43,543 nucleotides of DNA from a virus (taxonomy: Duplodnaviria > Heunggongvirae > Uroviricota > Caudoviricetes). Every line of letters begins with the position of its first letter. The stretch's first letter is position 1. The notes beneath the pieces are model-generated. The model was not told the DNA's origin. It saw only the letters and a program-made list of their open reading frames with translations, and made no database searches. Positions 4,018-18,120 of this stretch are shown here, piece by piece. The stretch spans positions 1-43,543 of the IMG/VR virus record IMGVR_UViG_2541047719_000002. One strand, written 5' to 3'. A program made the translations under genes and the position numbers.

Positions 4018-4682
4018 TACGTCGCCTCCTGCGGCGGTTCCGGTAGCGGCATCCAATTGATTACATCGCATTCAGGGATGCTGATATCATCACCAAGCCA
4101 CCCTTGACCTTCAGACCAGCATTGCACGTAATACCCGTATTTTGTGTTCACTACGCACCACTGCGCGTCGTTCGGCATTCGCTCACTACAGCTTATCCAA
4201 CCATCCGGAGTTACCGGATAGTTGCCAGCCAGTCTACGCAAAACAGCCTTAACAGCCTCAATACGGTCATCATCGCAATTTTCCAGCGTATCTATGCGGT
4301 CGAGCATGATGATGGCGTTATCAATATCAGGATTGCCGGTCCACTCATTACCGCGATTGGATTCGGCAGCCTGGTTGCGCATAATCTCAGGCGTAAGCTC
4401 TTTGTAAGCATAAGCAAGAGGCTCTGATGCATTATCCGGCACAACCGACGCAGGCGCGGCAGCATAAACAGGAATAACGTCCGGTTGCTCTTTATTGCTT
4501 TCATCCGTTAAAGCCCAGAATAATTTCCCGGCAGGATGTTTGAAAATATAAGCAACTGGATCTGCTTCCAGCGATGCCAGTGCAATTTCATAAGCCCGGC
4601 GTTCAATATTGTCTCGAACGTCCAGGCTGCTGATACGCTCTTTGATTTCTTTAATCAGTTCTTTGTCGGTTAAAGTGGTCAT
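4017..4682 (-). CDS. Hypothetical phage protein with C-terminal DUF551-like domain
   Basis: 221-aa ORF; C-terminal W/C-rich segment (WISCSERMPNDAQWCVVNTKYGYYVQCWSEG...WMPLPEPP) resembles DUF551 (recalled). Confidence 0.55.
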   Translation of the reverse strand: MTTLTDKELIKEIKERISSLDVRDNIERRAYEIALASLEADPVAYIFKHPAGKLFWALTDESNKEQPDVIPVYAAAPASVVPDNASEPLAYAYKELTPEIMRNQAAESNRGNEWTGNPDIDNAIIMLDRIDTLENCDDDRIEAVKAVLRRLAGNYPVTPDGWISCSERMPNDAQWCVVNTKYGYYVQCWSEGQGWLGDDISIPECDVINWMPLPEPPQEAT

Positions 4683-8219: not shown

Positions 8220-8744
8220 AATTCACCTCAGAATGGACACGGCCCAAGGAAATAACGCTGATTTAATACTTCGACTCGGGACAAATTAAGGCATACCCGC
8301 ATTCCTTGGCGGTCACCATTATGGCGATACCAGAGAGCTTTCTGCGTGTACATGCGTCTCTGTAACTTGCTCTCCTTCACTGTGGTTGCAAGTGACATGA
8401 ATATCTCCTTCGTTACCGATTAAATCTTTCATCTGACGAATGAATTCTTCGTCTGACCAGTTATCTGTAAAACTCATTTCCTGCGATACCACGGAAGGTT
8501 GATAGCTGATTTCATCGCTTTATTTGCTTCAAGCCACATTTTTGAATCACCAATAAATCTGGCTATTACTGCTTTGTTCTGTGCAGCACGAAGCATCTGG
8601 TGATTAATGGCTATTTCATTGCGCATAACGCCTCCAGTTGTTTCTTTGCTGCTCTGATTAATTGTTTAACTCGGCGTGATAATTCAGATTCGTGCGGGTA
8701 GAAAGCGGACATGACGCCGCTACCCGCTAAAATATATTCATTCA

Positions 8745-9257
8745 TTATTTGCTCCTGTAGAATTCGCCGTGATGCTTTCTGGCAAAGTCGCAGTAAGCTT
8801 TTTTGGCATCTTCTAATTCATTAAAGTACCCTAGATGTTTTTTCTTTCCGTTTAATTTACCATAGGCAGCCCACTTTCTACTTTCCTTCTTCCATGTGAC
8901 TCCTTTGCAACCTGATTTGTTGAGGGTGTTTATTTTACTATTCATTGAATTCTGTGAGTAAGTTGCAAGCCTCAGATTGCAAATTCTGTTATCTGTCTTA
9001 ATGCCATTTATATGGTCGATAATACCTTCAGGCTCAACACCGAAAGTGATAATCCATGCAAGTCTATGTGCAGCATAGTGTCTTCCGTTAATGAAAATCC
9101 TTAAGTAGCCGCTTGTTGTTATTGTTCCGGCAGTTCCACCTATCTTCCTTGCTCCATAAGATTTTAGCCATGTGAACTCACCAGAAATAGGGTTATATTT
9201 GACAACATTATTAATCTCACTTAGGGAAATTAATTCAAGAATCTTTATAAATGCCAT
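8745..9257 (-). CDS. HNH homing endonuclease with AP2-like DNA-binding domain (copy 1)
   Basis: HNH_3-type motif (HRLAW...IDHINGIKTDNRICNLR) plus C-terminal AP2-like segment (GVTW...KWAAYGK...LGYF); start set at ATG 9255-9257; AT-rich gene. Confidence 0.8.
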   Translation of the reverse strand: MAFIKILELISLSEINNVVKYNPISGEFTWLKSYGARKIGGTAGTITTSGYLRIFINGRHYAAHRLAWIITFGVEPEGIIDHINGIKTDNRICNLRLATYSQNSMNSKINTLNKSGCKGVTWKKESRKWAAYGKLNGKKKHLGYFNELEDAKKAYCDFARKHHGEFYRSK

Positions 9258-9341
9258 TTTATATCCTATCAACTGCGTTCATTAATCAGCGTTTACGCTC
9301 ATGAATAAACACCTCTCGTGAAGCGTTATTGGTATGCATAT

Positions 9342-9501: not shown

Positions 9502-9702
9502 TCAGGCAGCCTTGTTATTCTGTTTACCAAGTTCTCTGGCAATCATTGCCGTCGTTCGTATTGCCCATTTATCGACATATTTCCCATCCTCCATTACAGG
9601 AAACATTTCTTCAGGCTTAACCATGCATTCCGATTGCAGCTTGCATCCATTGCATCGCTTGAATTGTCCACACCATTGATTTTTATCAATAGTCGTAGTC
9701 AT
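9502..9702 (-). CDS. Hypothetical small Cys-rich protein
   Basis: 66-aa ORF with CxxxxxC...CxxC pattern (CGQFKRCNGCKLQSEC). Confidence 0.4.
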   Translation of the reverse strand: MTTTIDKNQWCGQFKRCNGCKLQSECMVKPEEMFPVMEDGKYVDKWAIRTTAMIARELGKQNNKAA

Positions 9703-10057: not shown

Positions 10058-10204
10058 TTACCTCGCTGTCAGTTGTTTTGATTTCCGGTAGCCTGCCGAG
10101 TAAATGGCTACGTTTGGCAGGCACACAGCACCACCTTCAACTTCCTTCTAACGCGTTCCTGCAAGCGAAATGGCTCTTGAAACACGTTTACTGGCTCCGT
10201 CCAT
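10058..10204 (-). pseudogene. C-terminal remnant of an N-type (P22 gene 24-like) antiterminator gene, with in-frame TAG
   Basis: Minus-strand translation ...DGASKRVSRAISLAGTR-TAG-KEVEGGAVCLPNVAIYSAGYRKSKQLTAR-TAA matches my recollection of the P22 gp24 C-terminus (KAISLAGTRQKEVEGGSVLLPGVALYAAGHRKSKQITAR); TAG at 10148-10150 sits where P22 has Gln; 5' end overlaps the 3' end of HNH copy 2. Confidence 0.45.
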
Positions 10205-10721
10205 GATTTTCATGAAAGCCATATAGTGCATTGGCTTCTTTCCTTGCTTGTTTGGCATCATCTAAAAGTTTGAATGAGCCTAGGTATTTTCGTTTTCCAT
10301 CCACAGTTATCGATGCAACATAAAACCCATGCTCTTTTCTTTCTTCAACACCTGTAACTCCAGTTGATGAAGATGATTTTAAAGGCATGTTTTTCATATT
10401 CTCTTTGAAAGAAACGCTTCTTAAATTGGAGATTCTGTTGTCATCCTTAACGCCGTTTATGTGATCAATCACATCAGGCCAGTAGCCATGCACGTAAAGC
10501 CATGCAAGTCTGTGAGACTTAAATTTTTTACCTCCAATATTTATTCTCAGATAACCCTTGTTGTCAGGTGAGCCAGCCTTTTTACCTGGATACTTCTTGT
10601 TCCACGTCAAGGCAGCTCTGTTATCCGCAAACAAATGCTTTGCTCTCGGCTTCCAATAAAAGTCACCACTCACAGGATTGTAATGAAGAATCTCCCTTAC
10701 AGACACTTGAGTAAGATCCAC
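10188..10721 (-). CDS. HNH homing endonuclease with AP2-like domain (copy 2)
   Basis: 177-aa ORF, GTG start with AGGAGG RBS; HNH_3 motif (HRLAWLYVHGYWPDVIDHINGVKDDNRISNLR) and AP2-like C-terminus (GVTGV...LGSF...ALYGFHENHGRSQ). Confidence 0.8.
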   Translation of the reverse strand: MDLTQVSVREILHYNPVSGDFYWKPRAKHLFADNRAALTWNKKYPGKKAGSPDNKGYLRINIGGKKFKSHRLAWLYVHGYWPDVIDHINGVKDDNRISNLRSVSFKENMKNMPLKSSSSTGVTGVEERKEHGFYVASITVDGKRKYLGSFKLLDDAKQARKEANALYGFHENHGRSQ

Positions 10722-15804: not shown

Positions 15805-15977
15805 GACGACAGCGACGAAGTTTCACCGACATCATCTGCGAAAACTGCAAATACCTTCCAACGAAACGCTCCAGAAATAAACGCAAGCCAATCCCAAAAG
15901 AATCTGACGTAAAAACCTTCAACTACACGGCTCACCTGTGGGATATCCGGTGGCTAAGACATCGTGCGAGGAAATGA
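15801..15977 (+). CDS. ninE: NinE-like protein
   Basis: 58-aa ORF ([58 protein letters not shown]) matching recalled lambda NinE; GGAGG RBS; ATGA overlaps. Confidence 0.6.
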
Positions 15978-16924
15978 CGATGACTGCGTATTACAACGAA
16001 ATAGATCCGTATGCAGCGCAATGGCTGCGTAACTTAATTGACGCTGGAGAAATTGCCCCCGGTTATGTAGATGAAAGGAGTATTGAAGATGTCACACCAG
16101 GTGATTTGCGAGGATTTACCCAGCACCACTTTTTTGCAGGAATCGGAGTTTGGAGCTATGCACTTAGAAAAGCAGGATGGCCAGACAACAAGAGTATCTG
16201 GACAGGAAGTTGCCCATGCCAACCTTTCAGCTCGGCAGGCAAAGGAAAAGGGGTTGATGACGAGCGGCACTTATGGCCGGCATTCTTCTGGCTTATTGAA
16301 AAATGCAATCCTGGCATCGTTATTGGCGAACAGGTTGCAAGCGCAGACGGCCTCGCTTGGCTCGACCTTGTACAAACTGACTTGGAAGGTGCGAACTACA
16401 CCTCTGCAGGTACCGATATTTGCGCTGCGGGCTTCGGTTCTCCGCACATCAGGCAGCGATTGTATTGGGTGGCCTACTCCAACGACAAATATCAACTTTC
16501 AGCCAGAGACGCGCAGGGGAATTCAGAACCTATCTGGATGCGTGAGACTAGCGGGATGGCAAACTCCTTTAGCGAACGATGCAACAGGTTCAACGCATTG
16601 CTACAGCGGAAAAGACAAGAGCGGAACCCCAAGAATCTGCTTGAAACTTCCCGGGACGGTGAAGCTATGTACCCATTACCGGTTAACGGCTTCTGGAGAG
16701 ATGCAGACTGGCTTTACTGTAGAGATGAAAAATATCGTCCAGTTAGACCCGGCTCATTCCCGATGGTTAATGGCATTGCCAAAAGCTTGGGACGAGGCAA
16801 GTCCACACTGGGAAGAATGGCAAAGCGCAATCAAGATCAGCGAATTATTGGATATGGAAACGCAATCAATGCAGAAGTAGCAACGGCATTCGTGAAAGTT
16901 TGTATGGAGGTTGTTAATGCTTAG
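15974..16924 (+). CDS. Orphan DNA (cytosine-5) methyltransferase
   Basis: C5-MTase motifs: motif [10 protein letters not shown], motif [17 protein letters not shown]-like IGEQV; no adjacent restriction endonuclease gene. Confidence 0.8.
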
Positions 16925-17102
16925 CCCATCCCAATCCATTCAATACCAGAAAGAAAGCGTCGAGCGAGCTTTAACGTGCGCTAACTGCGGTAAGAAGCTG
17001 CGTGTGCTGGAAGTTCACGTGTGTGAGCGTTGTATATATGAATGCTTAAATATGGTGGAACATAATGAGAAATATAAGCAACATAGACGAATTAAGAAAT
17101 AA
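16917..17102 (+). pseudogene. ninF: ninF 5' fragment (NinF residues 1-39 fused to a 22-codon out-of-context tail), interrupted by HNH gene insertion
   Basis: [39 protein letters not shown] matches recalled lambda NinF up to codon 39 (17033); sequence diverges from 17034. Confidence 0.6.
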
Positions 17103-17571
17103 ATTATCATATGATGATGTTTTAGGTGTACTTAGATGGAAAGTGTCTCCTTCTAATAATGTTAAGGTTGGCAGTGTTGCTGGTTACATTAGGAGTGATG
17201 GTTATAGGATGTTAACTATCGATGGTGTAATTACTTATGCTCACCACGTTATATGGATGATAAATAATGGTGAGATTCCATTAGGGTATAAAATTGATCA
17301 TATAAATGGAGTAAGGTCAGATAATAGGCTATCTAATCTTCGATTGGTTACACACCAACAGAATGCACAGAACCAAAAGAGAAAAATAACCAATTCGTCA
17401 GGAGTGACTGGAGTATATTTCAATAAAGAGAGATGTAAGTGGATTGCGAATATATGCGTAGATGGGCGCACCAAATATCTTGGAATATTTGCTAGCATCA
17501 TTGACGCTATTGCAGAAAGGAAGAGGGCAGAAAAAGAACTGGGTTTTCATGAAAACCATGGTAGACCATAA
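17065..17571 (+). CDS. HNH homing endonuclease with AP2-like domain (copy 3), inserted within ninF
   Basis: 168-aa ORF, ATG with RBS; HNH_3 motif (HHVIWMINNGEIPLGYKIDHINGVRSDNRLSNLR) and AP2-like C-terminus (GVTGVYF...LGIF...LGFHENHGRP); AT-rich. Confidence 0.85.
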   Translation: MRNISNIDELRNKLSYDDVLGVLRWKVSPSNNVKVGSVAGYIRSDGYRMLTIDGVITYAHHVIWMINNGEIPLGYKIDHINGVRSDNRLSNLRLVTHQQNAQNQKRKITNSSGVTGVYFNKERCKWIANICVDGRTKYLGIFASIIDAIAERKRAEKELGFHENHGRP

Positions 17572-17572
17572 C

Positions 17573-17632
17573 TGCGCAGAACTGATGAGCGATCCGAATA
17601 GCTCAATGTACGAGGAAGAAGACGATGAGTGA
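17573..17632 (+). pseudogene. ninF: ninF 3' fragment (encodes CAELMSDPNSSMYEEEDDE)
   Basis: Directly after the HNH stop; in frame with the ninF 5' fragment if 17034..17572 is removed; matches recalled lambda NinF C-terminus. Confidence 0.5.
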
Positions 17633-17837
17633 TTACCTGAAATGGTATCTCTGCCACCGCTGGTTAATTAAGTTTGCTGTAAAAGACTGGATGACAGCGG
17701 ATGCCAACAAGCTTAAACAACGAAAGGACTATTACTACGCCAGAATGAAGGAAAACTACTGCTCAATTCGCACTCGCATATTTATTAAAAAAGACCTTCA
17801 GTCAATTCTTCAGTTGCGAGGGAAGGTAAATGGCTAA
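17625..17837 (+). CDS. Hypothetical nin-region protein
   Basis: 70-aa ORF, ATG overlapping the ninF stop (ATGAGTGA). Confidence 0.45.
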   Translation: MSDYLKWYLCHRWLIKFAVKDWMTADANKLKQRKDYYYARMKENYCSIRTRIFIKKDLQSILQLRGKVNG

Positions 17838-18120
17838 CCTACGCAAAGAAGCGCGCGGCAGAGAATGCCAGGTACGTATTTACGGCGTATGCAATGGCAA
17901 CCCTGAAACTACAGTTCTGGCACATTACCGGATGGCTGGAATTTGCGGAACTGGAATGAAGCCTGACGACCTGATCGGCGCATGGGCTTGTAGCGCGTGT
18001 CACGATGAAATCGACCGACGCACCCATAACCTCGACAACAAAGACGCCAGACTTTACCACCTCGAAGGCGTAATCAGGACGCAGGCGATACTGCTGAAGG
18101 AGGGGAAGATTAAGTCATGA
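17830..18120 (+). CDS. YbcO-like (DUF1364) putative zinc-binding nuclease
   Basis: 96-aa ORF with Cys/His cluster (C..C...H...C..C.H); same size and position upstream of rusA as DLP12 ybcO (recalled). Confidence 0.55.
   Translation: MANLRKEARGRECQVRIYGVCNGNPETTVLAHYRMAGICGTGMKPDDLIGAWACSACHDEIDRRTHNLDNKDARLYHLEGVIRTQAILLKEGKIKS

What the first reader, a model, noticed from the sequence alone, without database searches (positions are those of the whole stretch)
17034..17572. Homing endonuclease gene inserted exactly at a codon boundary inside ninF
NinF codons 1-39 (ending CERC at 17033) and the NinF C-terminus (CAELMSDPNSSMYEEEDDE from 17573) flank a 539-bp AT-rich insert carrying HNH copy 3 with its own RBS. 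Deleting the insert restores an in-frame lambda-like NinF. The insert is too short to contain a group I ribozyme core and does not end in G, so this looks like a free-standing homing endonuclease that invaded ninF; the frame-preserving junction is still striking.
Basis: partly seen in the sequence, partly recalled or inferred. Interest (0 to 1): 0.7.

Follow-up and report, generated by a model that had tools for sequence, protein, structure and literature searches.

The report
Homing endonuclease gene splitting phage ninF
A small selfish gene for a DNA-cutting enzyme (an HNH homing endonuclease) sits inside the dispensable phage gene ninF. It is always at the same spot in many unrelated E. coli prophages, which makes it an ordinary but clean example of a known kind of mobile element, not an intron.

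Summary
ninF codons 1-39 end at 17033. A 539-bp, 35% GC insert follows, and the last 19 ninF codons resume at 17573. Removing the insert gives a 58-aa NinF that is 55/58 identical to that of phage vB_EcoP-683R2.

The insert is 31 nt of leader with a ribosome-binding site, one 168-aa ORF and 1 nt. The ORF has a Pfam HNH_3 domain, an I-HmuI-like fold and an AP2-like C-terminal domain. I found no ribozyme, no intein-style fusion, and no terminal repeats or target duplication.

The same insert (98-100% identical) occurs in 44 of 5426 complete E. coli genomes and in 28 IMG/VR contigs, always in ninF at the same junction. The flanking genes differ widely. The insert is 3-7 times less diverse than the adjacent ninF sequence. 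24 of 25 copies are intact, and dN/dS against an 85% relative at the same site is 0.07.

The "codon boundary / frame-preserving" remark carries no weight: the boundary is ambiguous by 1 nt, and excising any clean insertion restores the frame. Cleavage and homing are inferred, not shown. This is a new member of a known kind, of modest interest.

The parts
16917..17033 (+). ninF 5' part, codons 1-39. It holds all four zinc-ribbon cysteines (CANC...CERC).
   Evidence: Translation. Pfam NinF 2e-11 on the truncated product. Aligns to intact ninF of ON470594 and lambda.
17029..17033 (+). Junction-linked substitutions: CGT TGT here, against CAC TGC in the commonest intact alleles.
   Evidence: 36/36 insert-bearing alleles have CGTTGT and 0/112 empty alleles do. 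An exact scan of 2.9 M viral contigs for the restored CGTTGY junction found 0.
17034..17572 (+). The 539-bp insert. An equally valid placement is 17033-17571.
   Evidence: Absent from intact ninF. GC 0.349 against about 0.49 in the flanks. No terminal inverted repeats or target duplication. No Rfam match.
17034..17102 (+). Read-through tail of truncated NinF (IYECLNMVEHNEKYKQHRRIKK*). It is encoded by the insert and overlaps the endonuclease start by 38 nt.
   Evidence: ORF 16911/16917-17102. The tail is not conserved in the 85% relative (IYVLLNAGDDHEDNN*), so it is probably incidental.
17054..17059 (+). Ribosome-binding site GGTGGA of the endonuclease gene, 5 nt before the ATG.
   Evidence: Read directly from the sequence.
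17065..17571 (+). HNH homing endonuclease gene, 168 aa: N-terminal beta domain, HNH_3 nuclease motif, AP2-like DNA-binding domain.
   Evidence: Pfam HNH_3 1.2e-19. PHROG 99 3e-70. AF2 model pLDDT 89.6. Best PDB fold match is I-HmuI 1u3e, and AP2 domains match the C-terminus. D78/H79/N91/N100 are conserved in 56 homologues. dN/dS is 0.069.
17573..17632 (+). ninF 3' remnant, codons 40-58 plus stop. It has no convincing start of its own. It carries the ribosome-binding site and overlapping start of the next gene.
   Evidence: Translation. Identical in DNA to intact ninF of ON470594 and mEp043. The next ORF starts at 17625 within GACGATGAGTGA.
17625..17837 (+). Downstream 70-aa nin-region gene (PHROG 3973). 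Its start overlaps the end of ninF.
   Evidence: It has the same arrangement in ON470594 and mEp043.

Best explanation
The insert is a free-standing HNH homing endonuclease gene of the I-HmuI-like HNH_3 + AP2 type. It consists of a short leader with its own ribosome-binding site and a single ORF, and it sits in the non-essential lambdoid gene ninF at or next to codon 39.

Proposed mechanism, with what is shown and what is inferred:
1. Inferred: the gene is transcribed with the early-right (nin) operon. No promoter of its own was found.
2. Inferred: during mixed infection, or when an infecting phage meets a prophage, the enzyme nicks or cuts an uninterrupted ninF at or near ...GAGCACTGC|TGCGCAGAAC.... 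Lambda itself carries this sequence.
3. Inferred: phage or host recombination repairs the break from the insert-bearing copy. This copies the endonuclease gene in, together with the few bases next to it.
4. Inferred: the carrier is protected because the insertion splits the site, and perhaps also through the three linked substitutions at -5, -4 and -1.

Shown: the insertion, its single fixed site, its presence/absence polymorphism, its spread across many ninF haplotypes and gene contexts, and purifying selection on the protein.

Consequences for ninF: a 61-aa product that keeps the zinc ribbon but ends in a foreign tail, and an orphaned 3' remnant that still supplies the ribosome-binding site of the next gene.
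For: Anatomy:
- ninF halves flank a low-GC insert holding one ORF with its own ribosome-binding site.

Enzyme:
- HNH_3 1.2e-19 and PHROG 99 3e-70.
- Catalytic D-H...N...N are conserved.
- The AF2 model (pLDDT 89.6) best matches I-HmuI, with an AP2-like C-terminal domain.

Site specificity:
- All 45 E. coli genomes with the insert have it in ninF.
- The IMG/VR loci that span the left junction (27 of L007-L034) and the four E. coli loci examined all share the junction GAGCGTTGT|ATATATG.
- An 85% aa / 80% nt relative has the same left junction in a divergent ninF.

Presence/absence:
- 44 of about 1418 E. coli genomes that match the region carry the insert.
- 112 empty ninF alleles were sampled from IMG/VR.

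Spread:
- 21 distinct insert-bearing contexts fall into 12 upstream and 7 downstream sequence clusters. Neighbours include NinE, NinX or a C5 methylase upstream, and a 70-aa gene, NinG, a KilAC antirepressor or a 130-aa gene downstream.
- Insert-bearing exons carry the same distal polymorphisms as empty alleles.
- Nucleotide diversity is 0.0053 in the insert against 0.037 and 0.016 in the adjoining 85-nt and 55-nt ninF segments.

Function retained:
- 24/25 distinct copies are intact and 18 encode the identical protein. dN/dS is 0.069 against the 85% relative.
Against: - No cleavage or homing was observed, and the target site is inferred only from the insertion point.
- The population pattern is also what one ancient insertion, followed by ordinary lambdoid homologous recombination within and around the conserved ninF, would give. 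That pattern is low insert diversity, many contexts, and fixed SNPs within 5 nt of the insert.
- No sequenced phage in the INPHARED collection carries the insert. All carriers are prophages or UViGs.
- Several insert-bearing E. coli records show a second match to the region. If those are intact ninF copies, the enzyme is silent in lysogens or does not cut them.
- The linked substitutions fall on the naturally variable 'xx' of the second CxxC, so they may be founder variation and not immunity changes.
Confidence: 0.7

Rival explanations
1. Passive passenger. The endonuclease gene was inserted into ninF once, long ago, and no longer homes. It reached many prophage backgrounds by the ordinary homologous recombination that shuffles lambdoid nin regions. 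It is kept for some other benefit, for example damaging competing phages, or it has simply not yet decayed.
For: - ninF is a short conserved island in a highly mosaic region. Mosaic joints lie inside it, at about 16951, in both insert-bearing and empty alleles.
- SNPs fixed within 5 nt of a 539-nt heterology are expected from linkage alone.
- No isolated phage record carries the insert.
- One copy is broken by an IS3 element and one is frameshifted.
Against: - dN/dS of 0.069 and 24/25 intact ORFs argue for continuing selection on the enzyme.
- The insert is 3-7 times less diverse than the ninF sequence touching it. This fits recent spread into pre-existing alleles better than old co-residence.
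- A lineage with 20% DNA divergence keeps the same insertion point.
Confidence: 0.22
2. Self-splicing intron (group I or II) or intein, with the endonuclease as its mobility protein. An intact NinF would then still be made.
For: - The 5' ninF part ends in T (U), as group I 5' exons do.
- Deleting the insert restores NinF exactly.
- HNH_3 enzymes such as I-HmuI are intron-encoded in Bacillus phages (established knowledge; 1u3e is the best fold match).
Against: - Only 31 nt before and 1 nt after the ORF are non-coding.
- There is no Rfam hit of any kind at E<=10 in 16500-18100.
- The insert ends in A or C, not G.
- The junction regions do not fold better than shuffles in the relative (z = 0.24). 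The 3' junction region in the window also does not (z = -0.06).
- The ORF is out of frame with both ninF parts, and stop codons intervene. That excludes an intein.
Confidence: 0.02
3. Split but functional ninF. The insertion turned NinF into a working truncated zinc-ribbon protein, with or without a separately made C-terminal peptide, as homing endonucleases have split nrd genes in some T4-like and FelixO1-like phages.
For: - All four cysteines are kept in the 61-aa product, and the Pfam NinF model still matches it (2e-11).
- PGAP annotates two 'protein NinF' pieces in most carriers.
- Split nrdD interrupted by a homing endonuclease gene is documented (PMC4837284).
Against: - The 3' remnant has no convincing start or ribosome-binding site. 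The only in-frame ATGs lie inside the endonuclease ORF.
- The new tail is not conserved between the two endonuclease lineages, and the 85% relative has lost the ninF 3' part altogether.
- NinF function is unknown, so nothing can be scored.
Confidence: 0.1

Closest known systems
I-HmuI / I-HmuII / I-BasI-type HNH homing endonucleases of Bacillus phages SPO1, SP82 and Bastille (PDB 1u3e)
   Same: - The HNH_3 nuclease motif has the same conserved D-H...N...N residues.
- I-HmuI is the best structural match over 165 columns (Foldseek probability 1.00, E = 8e-4).
- The size is similar (168 aa against 174 aa), and both are modular: nuclease plus DNA-binding domain.
   Different: - Those enzymes are encoded inside group I introns of DNA polymerase genes. 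This one has no intron around it.
- Sequence identity is only about 22%.
- The C-terminal domain here has the AP2 fold, not I-HmuI's helix-turn-helix.
Free-standing homing endonuclease genes of T-even phages (seg and mob genes, e.g. MobE, SegF, SegG) and of T5 (F-Tfl enzymes)
   Same: - Each is a stand-alone ORF with its own translation signals, present or absent between otherwise homologous phage genomes.
- The presumed spread is by a break in the endonuclease-less genome, followed by repair with co-conversion of adjacent markers (established knowledge of 'intronless homing').
   Different: - Those usually lie between genes. This one lies inside a coding sequence and truncates it.
- The host here is a temperate lambdoid / P22-like phage.
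- Activity is untested.
Homing-endonuclease-split genes (nrdD in FelixO1-like phages, PMC4837284; eaE::HNH fusion in P22-like phage epsilon34, PMC2629481)
   Same: - An endonuclease ORF interrupts a phage gene and leaves two recognisable halves.
- Epsilon34 shows that HNH genes do occur inside genes of P22-like phages.
   Different: - The nrd halves are both long and are thought to function. Here the 3' remnant is 19 codons.
- In epsilon34 the HNH is fused in frame to eaE. Here it is out of frame and translated separately.
HNH-AP2 endonucleases (AP2 domain fused to HNH in bacterial and phage homing endonucleases)
   Same: - The AP2 fold appears at residues about 112-160. Matches to AtERF1 (1gcc) and TEM1 (7et5) have probability 1.00 and rmsd 1.8-2.8 A.
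- Several homologues carry precomputed PF00847 + PF13392, and paralogue 1 in the window hits AP2 at 1.2e-6.
   Different: By sequence, the AP2 match of this copy is below Pfam's threshold (E = 0.024, 15 bits against a cut-off of 33).

Membership tests
HNH (beta-beta-alpha-metal) endonuclease, Pfam HNH_3 | Match to the HNH_3 profile above the curated cut-off | tested here: met
   70.1 bits against a cut-off of 24.8, E = 1.2e-19, profile positions 2-46 of 46.
HNH (beta-beta-alpha-metal) endonuclease, Pfam HNH_3 | Catalytic His (general base) and metal-binding Asn/His retained | tested here: met
   D78-H79, N91 and N100 align with I-HmuI's DH...N...N. Across 56 homologues D78, N91 and N103 are invariant, and H79 and N100 are at least 90% conserved.
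HNH (beta-beta-alpha-metal) endonuclease, Pfam HNH_3 | Fold like a solved HNH homing endonuclease | tested here: met
   AF2 model pLDDT 89.6. The top PDB hit is 1u3e (I-HmuI), E = 8e-4, probability 1.00. The global TM-score is only 0.46 because the domains are arranged differently.
HNH (beta-beta-alpha-metal) endonuclease, Pfam HNH_3 | Endonuclease activity on DNA | not testable with these tools
   Needs purified protein and ninF substrates.
Free-standing homing endonuclease gene | Stand-alone ORF with its own translation signals, not inside an intron or intein | tested here: met
   GGTGGA lies 5 nt before the ATG. The ORF is out of frame with ninF. No RNA family matched.
Free-standing homing endonuclease gene | Presence/absence polymorphism at one fixed site among homologous genomes | tested here: met
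   All 45 E. coli genomes that hold the insert have it in ninF, and all 31 sequenced left junctions are identical. Most ninF alleles are empty.
Free-standing homing endonuclease gene | Enzyme cuts the empty allele and the gene is copied in (super-Mendelian inheritance) | not testable with these tools
   Only indirect support: spread over 12 x 7 flanking contexts, insert diversity 3-7 times below the adjacent exons, and dN/dS of 0.069.
Group I intron | Ribozyme core (P3-P9) and terminal G | tested here: not met
   No Rfam match at E<=10. Only 32 non-coding nt. The insert ends in A or C.
Group II intron | Six-domain RNA, GUGYG...AY ends, reverse-transcriptase ORF | tested here: not met
   No Rfam match. 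The insert starts (T)ATATAT. The ORF is an HNH nuclease, not a reverse transcriptase.
Intein | In-frame insertion translated as one polypeptide with the host protein | tested here: not met
   The ninF frame stops at 17100-17102. The endonuclease is in another frame, and the insert is 539 nt, not a multiple of 3.
Insertion sequence / transposon / MITE | Terminal inverted repeats, target-site duplication, transposase | tested here: not met
   No terminal inverted repeats or flanking direct repeats at the boundaries. The only ORF is the HNH protein.
NinF (Pfam PF05810) for the interrupted gene | Flanks join into a full-length NinF | tested here: met
   Pfam NinF 8e-13. PHROG 672 positions 1-58 of 58, 6e-36. 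55/58 identical to URC09324.1, and aligned with lambda NP_040638.1.

The most novel reading that the evidence does not exclude
The endonuclease is active and targets the one short, highly conserved sequence (ninF codons about 36-45) in an otherwise mosaic nin region. Its breaks would then not only spread the gene but act as a recombination hotspot that drives module exchange between lambdoid and P22-like phages. Insert-bearing ninF is found joined to at least 12 different upstream and 7 different downstream sequences. Because phage lambda carries the intact site, this could be tested directly with classical lambda crosses.
Probability: 0.2. Interest if true: 0.55.

Novelty: new member of a known kind. 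Interest (0 to 1): 0.3.

Why it matters
Free-standing homing endonuclease genes are well studied in virulent phages such as T4, T5 and SPO1. They have hardly been studied in temperate lambdoid phages, where genome mosaicism is usually attributed to recombinases alone.

This case gives a precisely defined element and site:
- the insertion point is fixed;
- lambda itself carries the intact site;
- dozens of natural carriers exist in E. coli and E. albertii prophages, including EPEC E2348/69 and ETEC B7A.

Homing, co-conversion and any effect on nin-region shuffling could therefore be measured in the best genetic system available.

For annotation, it explains the paired 'protein NinF' fragments in RefSeq E. 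coli genomes. It also explains the partial or mislabelled calls between them: 'HNH endonuclease, partial' and even 'serine/threonine protein phosphatase, partial'.

Tried and rejected
- **Intron or other RNA element.** The permissive Rfam scan of 16500-18100 found nothing. Folding of the 5' junction gave a weak hairpin around the ribosome-binding site (z = -2.2), but it is not conserved in the 85% relative (z = 0.24). The 3' junction is no better than shuffles. I dropped both the intron idea and the idea of a T4-style hairpin hiding the ribosome-binding site.
- **Transposon or MITE.** No terminal inverted repeats or target duplication.
- **Own promoter or terminator.** None was found on the + strand beyond chance.
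- **Immunity substitutions.** CGTTGT is exclusive to insert-bearing alleles (36/36 against 0/112, and 0 in an exact scan). However, it falls on the variable 'xx' of CxxC, and complete linkage is expected this close to the insert. I therefore report it only as a possibility.
- **Host range.** A junction pattern scan of one genome per species (GTDB representatives) found nothing. Cluster members are from E. coli and E. albertii only.
- **Isolated phages.** No phage record holds the insert at DNA level, and the best protein identity there is below 60%. None was found in plasmids.
- **Literature.** Four searches (ninF + homing endonuclease; ninF + HNH; lambdoid + homing endonuclease + nin region; free-standing homing endonuclease + lambdoid) found no description of this element.
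- **Polylysogens.** I wanted to see which ninF junction types coexist with the insert in the same genome. The search tool lists only the best place per record, so this could not be done.
- **My own memory.** The lambda NinF sequence I recalled was wrong at the N-terminus, so I replaced it with the record's own sequence.

Full report
**1. What is in the sequence**

ninF starts at ATG 16917, overlapping the stop of an upstream C5-methylase-like gene. It reads [39 protein letters not shown] up to 17033. From 17034 the sequence turns AT-rich. GC is 0.349 over 17034-17572, against 0.497 for the ninF parts and 0.484 and 0.493 for the 2-kb flanks.

The ninF frame runs on for 22 foreign codons to a TAA at 17100-17102. 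A separate ORF in another frame runs from 17065 to 17571 (168 aa), with GGTGGA 5 nt before its ATG. At 17573 the sequence TGC GCA GAA CTG... encodes CAELMSDPNSSMYEEEDDE*, ending at 17632. There the next nin gene starts inside GACGATGAGTGA.

Joining 16917-17033 to 17573-17632 gives a 58-aa protein. It hits Pfam NinF (8e-13) and PHROG 672 over its whole length (6e-36). It is 55/58 identical to NinF of Escherichia phage vB_EcoP-683R2. That phage's DNA is collinear with the window on both sides of the insert, so it shows the empty site. Lambda NinF (NP_040638.1) aligns over residues 10-58, and lambda DNA reads GTGTGTGAGCACTGC|TGCGCAGAAC at the same point.

**2. Boundary and 'frame'**

Intact alleles read ...GAG CAC TGC | TGC GCA G. 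The window reads ...GAG CGT TGT [ATATAT...CCATAA C] TGC GCA G.

The C at 17572 can equally be the original last base of codon 39. In that case the insert is 17033-17571, lies after the second base of codon 39, and ends exactly at the endonuclease stop codon. That reading needs one substitution fewer. It also fits a second, 20%-diverged copy of the element that has TGT|ATATATG too.

So 'exactly at a codon boundary' cannot be asserted, and it would mean nothing if it could. Removing any clean insertion restores the frame. The insert is 539 nt, not a multiple of 3, and its ORF is out of frame with both ninF parts.

**3. What the insert encodes**

- The ORF matches Pfam HNH_3 over the full profile (70 bits, 1.2e-19) and PHROG 99 'HNH endonuclease' (3e-70).
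- It aligns with the catalytic segment of I-HmuI. D78, N91 and N103 are invariant, and H79 and N100 are at least 90% conserved, among 56 homologues.
- An AlphaFold model built on that alignment is confident (pLDDT 89.6). Its best PDB match is I-HmuI (1u3e, probability 1.00).
- The C-terminal third matches AP2 DNA-binding domains (1gcc, 7et5; rmsd 1.8-2.8 A). By sequence, AP2 is only a sub-threshold hit for this copy (E = 0.024). It is clearer in paralogue 1 (1.2e-6) and is precomputed in several homologues.

**4. What it is not**

- **Not an intron.** A permissive Rfam scan of 16500-18100 returns nothing at E<=10. Only 31 + 1 nt are non-coding, and the element ends in A or C.
- **No special RNA fold.** In the window the 5' junction folds slightly better than shuffles (z = -2.2), but not in the relative (z = 0.24). 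The 3' junction gives z = -0.06.
- **Not an intein.** The frames differ and stop codons intervene.
- **Not a transposon.** There are no terminal inverted repeats, no target duplication and no transposase.
- **No own transcription signals.** No promoter or terminator beyond chance was found, so transcription with the early-right operon is assumed.

**5. Distribution**

- The 539-bp insert occurs at 98-100% identity in 44 of 5426 complete E. coli genomes. A 45th copy is split by an IS3 element. All are under NinF annotations.
- About 1418 genomes match some part of the 801-nt region around it.
- It is absent from the plasmid collection and from all 50,697 phage records. The best protein identity among phage records is below 60%.
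- IMG/VR holds 28 contigs with an endonuclease that is 99-100% identical in protein.
- The 90% protein cluster has 369 members. Those that carry a source name are from E. coli or E. albertii.
- Carriers include EPEC E2348/69 and ETEC B7A.
- A junction-pattern scan of one genome per bacterial species found nothing.

**6. Population evidence**

All 31 carrier loci that span the left junction share GAGCGTTGT|ATATATG.

The genes on either side differ:
- upstream: NinE, NinX, or in the window a C5 methylase;
- downstream: a 70-aa gene, NinG, a KilAC antirepressor, or a 130-aa gene.

Among 21 non-redundant carrier contexts, the 400 nt upstream fall into 12 clusters and the 400 nt downstream into 7, giving 16 combinations.

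I compared 36 insert-bearing and 112 empty ninF alleles:
- Polymorphisms at least 13 nt to the left and at least 33 nt to the right of the insert are the same in both sets and are shuffled among carriers (16 haplotypes).
- The bases at -5, -4 and -1 (CGT TGT) are fixed in carriers and absent from every empty allele. Empty alleles read GAGCACTGC, CTCCGATTGC or GAAGCGTGC.
- An exact scan of 2.9 million viral contigs for an uninterrupted CGTTGY junction found none.

Nucleotide diversity is 0.0053 in the insert, against 0.037 in the adjoining 85 nt and 0.016 in the adjoining 55 nt of ninF.

24 of 25 distinct copies keep the 168-aa ORF, and 18 encode the identical protein. Against the only intermediate relative (P0002, 85% aa), dN/dS is 0.069 with dS = 1.24. 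That relative lies on a 909-bp contig. It has the same left junction in a divergent ninF (...IHVCEKC) but runs directly into ybcO, with the ninF 3' part gone.

**7. Interpretation**

The simplest account is a free-standing HNH homing endonuclease gene specific for ninF.

- **Shown:** the insertion, the single site, the presence/absence polymorphism, the spread over many ninF haplotypes and contexts, and selection for an intact enzyme.
- **Inferred:** the enzyme cuts or nicks empty ninF near codon 39. Repair from a carrier copies the gene in. The split site, perhaps with the three linked substitutions, protects carriers.

The main rival is a single old insertion redistributed by ordinary lambdoid recombination. 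ninF is a conserved island with mosaic joints inside it, at about 16951. The sequence data alone cannot exclude this. The low diversity of the insert relative to its flanks and the strong purifying selection favour continued activity. The linked substitutions lie on the naturally variable 'xx' of the second CxxC, so they may simply be founder variation.

**8. Consequences for the phage**

- NinF becomes a 61-aa protein that keeps all four cysteines but replaces the acidic tail. The new tail is not conserved between the two endonuclease lineages, so it is probably incidental.
- The 3' remnant has no credible start of its own, but it still provides the ribosome-binding site and start context of the next gene.
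- ninF lies in the region removed by the lambda nin5 deletion (established knowledge), so it is dispensable for lytic growth and the cost of the insertion is probably small.

**9. Comparison and novelty**

- **Enzyme type:** an I-HmuI-like HNH_3 nuclease with an AP2-type DNA-binding domain.
- **Genetic type:** a free-standing homing endonuclease gene like the T4 seg/mob genes, but lying inside a coding sequence. In that respect it resembles the endonuclease-split nrdD of FelixO1-like phages (PMC4837284) or the eaE::HNH fusion of the P22-like phage epsilon34 (PMC2629481).
- **Prior description:** four literature searches found none for a ninF-specific element. RefSeq annotates the pieces generically and inconsistently.

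It is a new member of a known kind, and interest is modest (0.3). The most novel reading still open is that cutting at this conserved spot promotes module exchange in the nin region. Because lambda has the intact site, that idea is directly testable.

Noticed in passing
window 8745-9272 (-) and 10188-10721 (-): Two further HNH_3 (+AP2-like) endonuclease genes lie in the early-left region, near cIII (8611-8745) and ral (9502-9702). They are about 40% identical to the ninF copy and also low in GC (0.37 and 0.40). Related phages match the surrounding DNA but skip these segments, so they look like independent free-standing insertions.
   Followed up: partly
window 17542-17557 and 10201-10222: A perfect 16-nt palindrome, GGTTTTCATGAAAACC, encodes the near-invariant C-terminal motif GFHEN(HG) of this endonuclease family. 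It is shared at DNA level by copies 2 and 3, although the proteins are only 40% identical. I did not establish whether the palindrome matters as DNA or RNA, or merely follows from the peptide.
   Followed up: no
window 15938-16924 (+) and 16071-16880 (+): In this phage the gene just upstream of ninF is a 328-aa ORF with only a partial C5 cytosine methyltransferase match (residues 87-214, Pfam 6.6e-14). A 269-aa ORF in another frame of the same strand overlaps almost all of it and has no Pfam hit. Other insert-bearing prophages have NinX or NinE at this position.
   Followed up: partly
L005 (NZ_CP018953.1) 4084-4608: E. coli Ecol_276 carries the ninF insert and also a second, different 174-aa HNH gene between the DUF1364/ybcO gene and rusA in the same nin region. 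The nin region seems to collect such genes.
   Followed up: no
L156 (Logan SRR25288770 contig, 909 bp) 1-585: The only relative of intermediate identity (85% aa, 80% nt) has the same left junction in a divergent ninF (..IHVCEKC, TGT|ATATATG). It is 8 aa longer and abuts ybcO directly, so the ninF 3' part and the 70-aa gene are missing there.
   Followed up: partly
L158 (NZ_CM160040.1) 1263-2491: In E. coli Eco_70239 the ninF endonuclease gene is itself interrupted by an IS3-family element. This is one mobile element inside another, inside ninF.
   Followed up: no
L003, L004 (E2348/69, B7A) and cluster of P0001: RefSeq annotation of identical DNA is inconsistent. The endonuclease is called complete in some genomes and 'incomplete, missing C-terminus' in others, including B7A, whose insert is 100% identical to the window. 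Short ORFs inside it are named 'protein NinF', and several partial GenBank proteins of this cluster are labelled 'serine/threonine protein phosphatase'.
   Followed up: partly
window 16917-16950 versus L002 (mEp043) and 18 of 32 carrier loci: ninF has two unrelated 5' ends, ATGCTTAGCCCATCC... and GTGATTGACCCAAATCG.... They join the common sequence at about 16951, which is a mosaic joint inside this 58-codon gene. It is present in both insert-bearing and empty alleles.
   Followed up: partly
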